From UHGV virus genome UHGV-1833545: a DNA stretch of 10,664 bases; one strand, given 5' to 3'. This DNA comes from a virus. How positions within the stretch are numbered: position 1 is the stretch's first letter; every line of letters begins with the position of its first letter. Shown here in pieces: positions 1 through 3,000 of this stretch. The position numbers were made by a program.

Positions 1-3000
1 TCTCATATTCCTATCGCCATGCCGTGGGGCATGGATGGGGCAAAGTCCGATAATTTCTGGTTCAACATAGCAATCTGATCGCTGCTGCTGTCGGCCATCC
101 AGGCGCCGTAAACATTGAAAACCATCTGGGCGCTGGAGTGCCCCATTTGGCTGGCAATGAAACTCGGATTGGCCCCGGCAGACAGCGACCAGCAGGCGTA
201 AGTGTGTCTCGACTGATACGCCTTGCGGTGCCTTAAACCTGACCGTTTAAGCGCCGCATCCCATGAGTCACCAACTGAATCGGCTTTGTACAGGTAACCC
301 ACGCTGCCACTTTTTTTAACCAACTGAGGATTGAACACAAATGTACAGTCGTGAATGACCGTTCGGCCATACTCCCGCAGTTGTACCTCAACCTGATACT
401 GCCTGCCTAACCTGGTCATTTCCGCCTGGTTCCTCAAAGCGTCAATGGCTGGCTTGATCAGGTGAACGACCCTGTCGGTACCGGCTTCGGTTTTTGGTAG
501 AGTGAAATCACCGAGTTTCGTATAATTCCGGCGTATGGTCATCGTTCCAGTTTTCAGATCTATGTCTTCCCATGCGAGGGATACCAGCTCACCGTAGACG
601 TAATCCTGTGTATACCGCAATTGACCACAGGTTTTTCGTTTGCTGATGCTTGCAGGCATCTATGAAGCGAACGAATTCATCACGTGTGAGCGGATCTGGT
701 TCTATCCTGGCCCTCTTTAGCGGCTTGATGCCGTTAAACGGGTTTTCACTCACATAGCCATTATCAACAGCAAACTGAAACATACCCGCGATCGTGGTCA
801 TGTAGTAGTTTACCGTCACCACACTCAACCCTTTATCCCCCGCCAGCATATCCTTCCTGATATAGAGAAGCTCTTCTCTTGTCACAGACGAAACCAGCTT
901 ATTCGCGCCAACCCTCGGCAGCATGCTTCTAACCACCGATTCGTACCTGTTTATGGCATTAGCGCAGATCTCCATCCGTTTAAGCTCAAGCCATTTTTCA
1001 GACAGATCTTTTACGGTGATATCTTTCTTCCCGATGCCGAAAGTTTTCAGATTTGGCGAGTTGGGGAATTGGGCCGCATAGTCAAAGGTCCCCATGCGGA
1101 TAGCGAAACAAACTGACGTTCTCAGCTCCCCGGCCACCTTCCTGTTTTTAGCGGTGTCAGGGACACCGAGGTTTTCCCTGACACGCTTACCTTTAAAAAT
1201 GAACCATATGCGGAGTGACTTTCCGTGGTTCTCAACGCCCGTTGGGTATGATTCTTTACTCATTTATCCCTCCCGACGTCCAGGAGCGTTGCAAGTTTAC
1301 CTGTTTCATACCGCCCGATCACCCAATGGTTGCTTTTGCGCCTGAATCCATGCGTCTACCGCTTTGCGGTTGTACATGCATTCGCTGGTTGGCTTTGGCT
1401 CTCCTTCAGGGGAAACGTGCTTATACTCCCGGCCAAGCAGCCAAGATGATTTACGGGCCCGTGTAATGGTGCCGCGCTTCATCCCAGTGACCGCCATCAG
1501 CAAGTCCTCTGAAACCCATTCGTTTGGCTCGATCTGGATAATTGTCTGCATTTATCACCTCCGATGCTTACCGCGTAATTCCTCTTCTTCCTGACAGTCA
1601 GCACAGCGCTGGCATCCCGCCACCAGTTCCCTGCGCCGCTCGGGTATCTCTTCCCCGCAGTCGCGGCAGTGAGTAGCCGAAACTGCATGATGGTTGATGC
1701 GCATGTTCTGGATGGTCATTTCAAGCCGGCGTTCTGCCAGCTCGTTGGCCTAATCGATGAGTTCTGCGCTCATGCTGAAACTCCCTTAACTGCCAGAAAC
1801 GTAGCCATCGCTTTATCAACAATCTTCGAATTGTGGTATTTGCTGATTGCCCAGGTGATAGCGAATAGAATCCAACGGAAGTGACTGGTATACGTTTTAA
1901 ACGTCAGGCCTTCGCAGACATCCCAGGCGCTCCAACCAGCTGGCCAATCAGCGTCATAAACAGCCTGATAAGCCTCCCATTCGTTATTGAAGTCAGCTCG
2001 GCATAAGTCGCGGACGATTTCGCGTAACACTGCTTTGTCGCTATCCGGTGTATCGTCATCGTCGTCCCAGTCTTCATCCTCTTCTGTTTCAGCATCTTCA
2101 TCGTCCTTCAGGTAATCACTCAGAGACTCTTTCAGACTTTTGCAGAACGCGTCGTGGTCATACTCTTTCGCCAGCATTTCTCGTGCCGAACATCCCGCGC
2201 CAGCCTCCAGCTTTTCAGCCCAGTAATGGGTATTGATTCCACCCTCCCAGGCGCCAAAAAAGTCGAACATGTCCACGATGCGACTGAATGTCCAGGTTCC
2301 CATGTCGCCGGTTACGGTCAAGTAACCAGGCCATGTGATAACGTCGTAGTAGTAGCAAGATGTTCCCGGCTGCTGCATGCGCAGGTGGCGATACAGCCCA
2401 TCGTCACGGATGATTTCCAGACGGTGAAATGCGGTATCAATCAAAAATCGTGAGTCAATTTCGAAGAAGCTCATAACTCGACTGCCTTACTCAGCTTCTC
2501 GCCGAGCGCAAAGATGTAGTCGCGTAACTCTTCCAGTGACTGCGCTTCTGATTGCAGAATTTCACGATGGCAAAGTTCTTTCACCAGGTGCTCAAACTTG
2601 CTGTAATAACCGATACGGCTTAGTGTTTCTTTCCCTGCATTCTCACCTTCTTTGATAATTCCTCTTTCATTAAGAATCAGGTCGTGTTTGGTTCCGGTAA
2701 TAACGTATTTGCCGAGGTCGATGTTTAGCTTCATTGTTTTCATTGTTAATTCCTCAGTCATTACTGATAGCGCCATAGCGTGAGCGGTAATTACGCAGGC
2801 GCGGGTCAATTTCAGGGAAGTGGGTATATGTGGCTTTGCGGAATGGTCGGATTGATGTCTGGTAAATTCGCTCTCGTTCTTCTTTCTCTGCAAGCCATAT
2901 ACAGTGGCGAAATTCCTTTTCCTCTTTCGTTTCCTGCGGTAGAGACATTATTCGATCGTAGTTTTTTCTGAATTTATCCAGCACCTCCGATACGGAATTG

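What the first reader, a model, noticed from the sequence alone, without database searches (positions are those of the whole stretch)
585..660. Integrase disrupted by a 1-base insertion inside the conserved TGLR-x-GEL region
The N-terminal frame ends YTGLRLR-stop while the +1 frame continues YGELVSLAWEDIDL into the catalytic domain. Deleting one base in CGTCTACGG (about 592..606) would read TGLRYGEL and give a ~419-aa integrase. As written the prophage lacks an intact integrase, so it may be excision-defective (cryptic) or depend on a helper.
Basis: partly seen in the sequence, partly recalled or inferred. Interest (0 to 1): 0.5.

Follow-up and report, generated by a model that had tools for sequence, protein, structure and literature searches.

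The report
One-base frameshift in prophage integrase
The integrase gene of a lambda-like E. coli prophage is split by one extra base, but that base occurs only in this thinly sequenced metagenome contig, so it is either a sequencing error or a very recent mutation and is ordinary either way.

Summary
On the minus strand, the integrase reads 222 native residues (1263..598), then Leu-Arg-stop (TGA at 591..589). Residues 223-419 continue in the next frame down to position 3. One extra base causes this: A at window 596, which is T on the coding strand (CGTC[T]ACGG). Removing it restores a 419-aa protein 100% identical to RefSeq WP_016244761.1, and the motif then reads TGLRHGEL, not TGLRYGEL.

The integrase is a normal lambda-type tyrosine recombinase. 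It has an arm-binding domain and a catalytic domain, an intact excisionase next to it, and it sits at the prophage end inserted in E. coli yecE.

The extra base is a singleton:
- It is absent from 81 of 81 complete E. coli genomes that carry this integrase.
- It is absent from 10 Klebsiella phages.
- The intact protein is on 452 contigs; the truncated one is on 1.
- That one contig is ENA ERZ772887 NODE_1731, coverage about 2.9.
- A second assembly (ERZ28663478, scaffold_4150) differs over 6.26 kb by only two known polymorphisms and this base. It shares two other rare inactivating mutations but has the integrase intact.

I rate a sequencing or assembly artefact, or an unfixed variant, at about 0.55. 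I rate a genuine recent knockout that locks in a decaying prophage at about 0.40. Programmed frameshifting is excluded. Interest is low.

The parts
589..1263 (-). Integrase N-terminal reading frame. It has 222 native residues (arm-binding domain 7-70, core-binding/SAM-like domain about 84-183, start of the catalytic domain with catalytic Arg222 in TGLR), then out-of-frame Leu-Arg and a stop.
   Evidence: PF12167 E=2e-24; PF13102; PF24624.
596..596 (-). The extra base: A on the + strand, T on the coding strand (CGTC[T]ACGG). It is the cause of the frameshift.
   Evidence: Alignment with BY63 and RothC. Gap list. Deleting it restores a 419-aa protein identical to WP_016244761.1.
589..591 (-). 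Premature TGA stop, reached two codons after the insertion.
3..595 (-). Integrase C-terminal coding part (native residues 223-419) in the shifted frame. It carries the remaining active-site residues K257, R352, H375 and nucleophile Y385. Stop codon at 5..3.
   Evidence: (PF00589 E=1.3e-10 on this half alone). (alignment to Tn1549 Int). (numbering).
1306..1551 (-). Excisionase gene (81 aa, DUF1233 family). It is intact and 100% identical to the BY63 protein.
   Evidence: (PF06806 E=1.5e-34).

Best explanation
The sequence encodes a standard lambda-type tyrosine integrase with an arm-binding N-domain, a core-binding domain and a catalytic domain. It belongs to a lambdoid prophage inserted in the 5' end of E. 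coli yecE.

The single extra T after the Arg222 codon is most likely not a fixed feature of the prophage. I read it as a sequencing or assembly error, or at most a minority variant, that entered a metagenome contig of about 2.9x k-mer coverage. On this reading the real integrase is the intact 419-aa protein and the prophage is not integrase-deficient.

What is shown: the extra base, its position, its uniqueness, and an intact sister assembly. What is inferred: that the base is an artefact.
For: - The window is the reverse complement of bases 1-10664 of ENA ERZ772887 NODE_1731_length_14576_cov_2.898354, so coverage is very low.
- The truncated 224-aa product is on record on 1 contig. The exact intact 419-aa protein is on 452 contigs.
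- A 41-bp probe centred on the insertion finds 0 of 5426 complete E. coli genomes. The 40-bp intact version finds 81 of 81 carriers.
- Every full-length hit listed has a span one base shorter than the query.
- The exact 23-mer is absent from viral contigs. In the genome and metagenome collections it hits only an unrelated Anaerolineaceae peptidase gene by chance.
- A second assembly, ERZ28663478 ZHAN15-1_SAMEA2737735 scaffold_4150, covers the same prophage-host junction. Over 6260 bp it is identical except for two known polymorphic sites in abc2 and the absence of this base.
- That assembly and this contig are the only two carriers on record of a rare 4-bp deletion. This makes it plausible that both come from the same sample or host.
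- Apart from the insertion, the gene has no degenerative change. Its one other difference is synonymous.
Against: - The insertion is not in a homopolymer, so it is not a typical sequencing-chemistry error.
- No private substitution errors appear in the 4.9 kb that the sister contig cross-checks, so the contig is not generally error-ridden.
- The lineage really does carry two other gene-killing mutations. A third, real one in int would fit a decaying prophage.
- I could not establish whether the two assemblies derive from the same sample (one search found nothing).
- I have no reads.
Confidence: 0.55

Rival explanations
1. The base is a genuine, very recent +1 insertion that knocks out the integrase of a prophage already decaying. 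Translation stops after Arg222-Leu-Arg, so no polypeptide combines Arg222 with K257, R352, H375 and Y385. Int-dependent attL x attR recombination fails even though Xis is intact. The prophage is then locked in yecE unless an integrase of the same specificity is supplied in trans, for example from another yecE-type phage.
For: - The frameshift is in the sequence as given.
- The same lineage has a 4-bp deletion (TGGCTGGC->TGGC) that splits the Sak4-like ATPase, and a Q8* nonsense codon in the TraR/DksA gene. Both are confirmed in a second assembly and absent from 5426 complete E. coli genomes.
- This points to relaxed selection on the prophage.
- The cross-checked part of the contig shows no random substitution errors.
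Against: - The allele is a singleton: 1 contig against 452, and 0 of 81 genomes.
- The nearest relative, which shares both lineage-marker mutations and the same host flank, has the gene intact.
- Coverage is about 2.9x.
- The gene has no second lesion.
Confidence: 0.4
2. Programmed +1 ribosomal frameshifting or another recoding event makes full-length integrase from the interrupted gene.
For: Only that a 0-frame stop (UGA) lies two codons after the shift point, as in some +1 recoding sites.
Against: - The interruption is not conserved. Every homologue examined has the uninterrupted frame.
- The site CGU CUA CGG UGA has no slippery codon whose tRNA could re-pair in +1. This is from inspection of the sequence.
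- A shift at CGG-UGA would delete the conserved Gly of the R-H-G-E-L motif.
- There is no homopolymer for transcriptional slippage.
Confidence: 0.01
3. The two halves are expressed separately and reassemble into an active split integrase.
For: An ATG at 659..657 opens a 218-aa ORF that covers the C-terminal half.
Against: - No Shine-Dalgarno-like sequence precedes that ATG (sequence).
- The ORF starts with about 20 out-of-frame residues.
- The break falls inside the catalytic domain, one residue after catalytic Arg222.
- No relative has such an arrangement.
Confidence: 0.01

Closest known systems
RefSeq WP_016244761.1, the tyrosine-type recombinase/integrase of yecE-inserted lambdoid prophages of Enterobacteriaceae (e.g. 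E. coli BY63). The integrases of Klebsiella phages RothC/RothD, Mulock and '6 LV-2017' are about 97-98% identical in DNA.
   Same: After removing base 596 the protein is 100% identical (419 aa). Its neighbours are the same (excisionase, TraR/DksA, and so on), and so is its insertion next to yecE-yecN-cmoA-cmoB.
   Different: One extra base at 596 splits the ORF, and position 931 carries a synonymous change.
Lambda-type (arm-binding) tyrosine integrases; the nearest solved structure by sequence is Tn1549 Int (PDB 6EN0/6EMY/6EMZ).
   Same: It has an arm DNA-binding domain, a core-binding domain and a Phage_integrase catalytic domain. The motifs TGLR(H)GEL, PKTxxG, RHT, GHS and the nucleophile Tyr all align.
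   Different: The relationship to the solved structures is distant (E about 1e-8). In the window the catalytic domain is divided between two frames.
Integrase-defective, locked-in cryptic prophages, and yecE as a known lambdoid/Stx prophage integration site (PMC8112680).
   Same: If the base is real, this is the familiar first step of prophage domestication. yecE is a documented attB for lambdoid phages with a 21-bp att. The attL junction here lies in the 5' end of yecE.
   Different: Classical cryptic prophages carry many lesions that are fixed in a lineage. Here the int lesion is a singleton and is absent from the sister contig.

Membership tests
Tyrosine recombinase / phage integrase (Pfam PF00589) | Catalytic-domain profile match | tested here: met
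   PF00589 scores E=2.6e-17 on the repaired protein (residues 192-385). It scores E=1.3e-10 on the C-terminal window ORF alone. PHROG 1 'integrase' scores E=1.3e-82.
Tyrosine recombinase / phage integrase (Pfam PF00589) | Active-site residues: Arg I, Lys, His/x-x-Arg II, His/Trp III and the Tyr nucleophile | tested here: inconclusive
   By alignment to Tn1549 Int and motif position: R222 (TGLR), K257 (LPKTEAG), R352 (SRHT), H375 (GHS), Y385 (NVYG). The residue three before R352 is Tyr349, not His. The aligner placed a gap there, so this position is unresolved.
Tyrosine recombinase / phage integrase (Pfam PF00589) | All active-site residues encoded on one uninterrupted polypeptide | tested here: not met
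   In the window as written, R222 is in frame -3 and K257/R352/H375/Y385 are in frame -1. This feature is met in all relatives.
Lambda-type heterobivalent integrases | N-terminal arm-type DNA-binding domain | tested here: met
   PF12167 Arm-DNA-bind_2 scores E=2e-24 on residues 7-70.
Lambda-type heterobivalent integrases | Adjacent excisionase gene, and a position at the prophage end next to the att junction | tested here: met
   The DUF1233 excisionase at 1306..1551(-) is intact. The host yecE sequence resumes about 30 bp beyond window position 1.
Programmed ribosomal frameshift genes | Frameshift conserved among homologues | tested here: not met
   0 of 81 E. coli genomes have the interruption, all 10 full-length phage hits lack it, and the intact protein is on 452 contigs against 1.
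Programmed ribosomal frameshift genes | Slippery site at the shift point | tested here: not met
   The site is CGU CUA CGG UGA. There is no repeat-containing or re-pairing codon and no homopolymer (sequence, judged by inspection).
Established pseudogene / cryptic prophage | Lesion shared by a lineage, or accompanied by further degenerative changes in the gene | tested here: not met
   The lesion is a singleton. The sister contig is intact. The gene has no other non-synonymous change. Neighbouring genes do carry two lineage-shared lesions.

The most novel reading that the evidence does not exclude
The insertion is real, and the 224-aa product (arm-binding domain plus core-binding domain, catalytically dead) is made. 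It would occupy the arm and core sites of attL/attR and so act as a dominant-negative lock, blocking excision even by a helper integrase of the same specificity. With the Sak4 and TraR knockouts, this would catch a lambdoid prophage at the moment of domestication in a gut E. coli.
Probability: 0.04. Interest if true: 0.3.

Novelty: already known. Interest (0 to 1): 0.08.

Why it matters
It matters little beyond annotation quality. If the base is real, this one prophage copy cannot excise by itself, which is a commonplace step in prophage decay. If it is an artefact, the gene should be annotated as the intact and widespread 419-aa yecE-type integrase. The practical lesson concerns single-base frameshifts in contigs of about 3x coverage. 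They should be checked against reads or sister assemblies before any biological conclusion is drawn.

Tried and rejected
- **Exact-pattern scans.** I scanned three collections for the 23-mer that spans the insertion. Viral contigs gave 0 hits. The genome collection gave 1 hit and the metagenome collection gave 5. All six lie in an unrelated Anaerolineaceae peptidase gene (peptide ...EDYVYGELG...). They share only a 24-base chance identity with the window.
- **Sample origin.** I tried to learn whether ERZ772887 and SAMEA2737735 are the same sample. A literature search on the accessions found nothing. Look-ups of the short lineage-specific 54-aa and 182-aa products returned only the same two ENA contigs and no run-level assemblies.
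- **General error-proneness of the contig.** The two substitutions that separate it from the sister contig are both common population polymorphisms in abc2. They are therefore not random errors, and this test did not decide the matter.
- **Programmed frameshifting and a split enzyme.** I considered both and rejected them (see the rival explanations).

Full report
**1. What is in the sequence**

The feature lies on the minus strand. ORF 589..1263(-) translates to 224 aa ending ...NLWSIAVYTGLRLR*. The frame reading 3..659(-) contains ...YGELVSLAWEDIDLKTGTMTIRR... and runs to the natural integrase C-terminus.

tblastn with the intact 419-aa integrase of E. coli BY63 (WP_016244761.1) places the two halves as follows:
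- Residues 1-222 fall at 1263..598 in frame -3, at 100% identity.
- Residues 223-419 fall at 596..6 in frame -1. The only mismatch is the junction residue, H223 read as Y.

DNA alignment with BY63 and Klebsiella phage RothC shows one extra base. On the coding strand it is CGTC[T]ACGG against CGTCACGG, which is window position 596 (A on the + strand). The placement is unambiguous because the T differs from both neighbouring bases. It is not in a homopolymer.

Deleting base 596 gives a protein identical over all 419 residues to WP_016244761.1. The only other nucleotide difference in the gene, at 931, is synonymous (GTT/GTG, Val111).

The one correction is that the native motif is TGLRHGEL, not TGLRYGEL.

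**2. What the gene is**

The repaired protein matches these profiles:

| Profile | Residues | E-value |
|---|---|---|
| Arm-DNA-bind_2 (PF12167) | 7-70 | 5.5e-24 |
| SAM-like / Int_N core-binding profiles | about 84-183 | 1.2e-4 (PF13102), 2.7e-4 (PF24624) |
| Phage_integrase (PF00589) | 192-385 | 2.6e-17 |
| PHROG 1 'integrase' | 18-413 | 1.3e-82 |

The nearest solved relative by sequence is Tn1549 Int. TGLRHGEL aligns with its TGLRISEL, LPKTEAG with its EPKTQSG, SRHT with its MRHT, GHS with its GHS, and NVYG with the nucleophile-Tyr motif. In the 419-aa numbering these are R222, K257, R352, H375 and Y385.

The insertion falls one codon after catalytic Arg222. The N-terminal product keeps both DNA-binding domains and Arg I. 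It lacks every other active-site residue.

Immediately upstream is an intact 81-aa DUF1233 excisionase at 1306..1551(-).

The rest of the window is a typical lambdoid early region:
- TraR/DksA gene and abc2 (anti-RecBCD)
- SSB-like DUF669 protein and Sak4-like ATPase
- kil, cIII, ral and an N-like gene
- a cI-type repressor, cro and cII
- replication protein O, DnaB and an HNH endonuclease

**3. Where the window comes from**

An exact-product look-up found the truncated 224-aa protein on a single contig: ENA ERZ772887 NODE_1731_length_14576_cov_2.898354. The window is exactly the reverse complement of the first 10664 bases of that contig.

The remaining 3.9 kb of the contig is E. coli yecE-yecN-cmoA-cmoB. 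Aligned to K-12, host identity resumes about 30 bp beyond window position 1, inside the 5' end of yecE. The phage end supplies a new start codon for yecE. yecE is a documented lambdoid/Stx-phage integration site with a 21-bp att (PMC8112680).

The contig name gives a k-mer coverage of about 2.9, which is very low.

**4. How common the interrupted allele is**

It is a singleton by every measure I could apply:
- The exact intact protein is on 452 contigs. The truncated one is on 1.
- Every listed full-coverage hit to this gene in complete E. coli genomes (52 rows, from 81 genomes with at least 80% coverage) spans one base less than the query. The ten full-length phage hits also lack the extra base: the hits closest in sequence span one base less than the query, and the more diverged ones were annotated as full-length integrase.
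- A 41-bp probe centred on the insertion hits none of 5426 genomes.
- The 40-bp intact version, used as a positive control, hits 81 of 81 carriers.
- Pattern scans of the viral, genome and metagenome collections found no integrase with the insertion. The few exact 23-mer hits lie in an unrelated Anaerolineaceae peptidase gene and share only 24 bases with the window.

**5. The sister contig**

While comparing the window with BY63 I found a second frameshift. A 4-bp deletion (TGGCTGGC->TGGC, at about 4198) splits the Sak4-like ATPase (PHROG 2872, E=3e-108) into ORFs 4167..4331(-) and 3655..4203(-).

Looking up those fragments returned only two contigs. One is the source contig. The other is ERZ28663478 ZHAN15-1_SAMEA2737735_METAG-scaffold_4150, 6259 bp long.

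That contig covers cIII through int into yecE-yecN. Over 6260 aligned bases it differs from the source contig at only three places:
- window 2874 and window 3021, both in abc2;
- the absence of the extra base at 596.

Its integrase is therefore the intact 419-aa protein. Both abc2 differences are ordinary polymorphisms shared with other E. coli prophages. abc2 occurs up to four times per genome, so those two differences may reflect path choice between paralogous prophage copies.

I also found a third lesion. The TraR/DksA gene (1555..1773, minus strand) has CAA->TAA at codon 8, which is + strand position 1752. The sister contig shares it, because there is no difference between the contigs at that position.

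Neither the nonsense allele nor the 4-bp deletion occurs in any of 5426 complete E. coli genomes. The intact Sak4 protein is on 966 contigs and the 182-aa fragment is on 2.

**6. Interpretation**

Two facts pull in opposite directions.

In favour of a real mutation:
- This prophage lineage has accumulated two reproducible gene-killing mutations in accessory early genes. That suggests relaxed selection and makes a third, real lesion in int plausible.
- The insertion is not a typical homopolymer error.

In favour of an artefact:
- The int insertion is the only private difference of a contig at about 2.9x coverage.
- The only other known copy of this rare lineage, with the same host flank, has int intact.
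- The two contigs come from different submitters' assemblies. They may be re-assemblies of the same public sample. I could not verify this.
- If they are from the same sample, the discrepancy is an assembly or read error or a minority variant.

At such coverage an assembler builds stretches from single reads or low-k paths, and indels are not removed by substitution-oriented read correction. This last point rests on general knowledge of short-read assembly and was not tested here.

Weighing these, I put about 0.55 on an artefact or unfixed variant and about 0.40 on a genuine recent knockout.

Programmed +1 frameshifting is excluded. The interruption is not conserved, and the site CGU CUA CGG UGA is not slippery. 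A split active enzyme is implausible. The break is inside the catalytic domain, and no ribosome-binding site precedes the downstream ATG.

**7. Consequence if the base is real**

This section is inference from established lambda biology. Excision needs Int together with Xis. A product ending at residue 224 cannot cleave DNA. The prophage would therefore stay in yecE on induction unless an integrase of the same specificity is supplied in trans. The truncated protein retains its DNA-binding domains and might compete for att sites.

**8. Novelty and score**

The integrase is an already catalogued protein. A frameshifted integrase and a low-coverage indel are both familiar things. Interest is low, at about 0.08. 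The decisive test is to inspect the reads at position 596.

Noticed in passing
window 3655..4331 (-), deletion at about 4198/4199: The Sak4-like ssDNA-annealing ATPase (226 aa in relatives; PHROG 2872, Pfam AAA_24) is split by a 4-bp deletion in a tandem TGGCTGGC repeat, giving ORFs of 54 and 182 aa. The lesion is shared with a second, independent assembly (ERZ28663478 scaffold_4150) and is absent from 5426 complete E. coli genomes. It is therefore a real and rare lineage marker.
   Followed up: yes
window 1555..1773 (-), position 1752: The TraR/DksA-family gene has a premature stop at codon 8 (CAA->TAA; MSAELID*ANEL...). BY63 has the intact 72-aa protein. The sister contig shares the stop, no complete E. 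coli genome has it, and neither assembly called a gene there.
   Followed up: yes
L006 10665..10700 (just outside the window, beyond position 1): The prophage-host junction lies in the 5' end of yecE. Host identity to K-12 resumes at GCCCGCCACTTTAAC..., about 30 bp past the int stop. The phage end supplies a new ATG and about 10 codons that replace the first 25 or so codons of yecE, giving a chimeric 257-aa DUF72 protein.
   Followed up: partly
window 2754..3047 (-), positions 2874 and 3021: The only substitutions between the two assemblies of this prophage cluster in abc2 (anti-RecBCD). Both are common polymorphisms among E. coli prophages, and abc2 occurs up to 4 times per genome. This may reflect reads from paralogous prophages being mixed in low-coverage assembly.
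   Followed up: partly
window 5016..5195 (-): A 59-aa Ral (antirestriction) ORF with a Pfam Ral hit looks intact here. The corresponding gene is annotated as a frameshifted pseudogene in E. coli BY63 and Br_190_kylling.
   Followed up: no
window 5935..6636 (-) and 10031..10642 (+): The cI-type repressor is only 37-70% identical to those of the closest E. coli prophages, although its flanks are 97-99% identical. This is a mosaic immunity region. An HNH endonuclease gene sits right after dnaB, as in strain Br_190_kylling but not in BY63.
   Followed up: no
window 584..607 versus L003, L015-L019: A 24-base exact identity links the frameshifted integrase site to an Anaerolineaceae M14-like peptidase gene from digester and sludge metagenomes (peptide EDYVYGELG). 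It is a pure coincidence, and it shows that 23-mer pattern hits need checking.
   Followed up: yes
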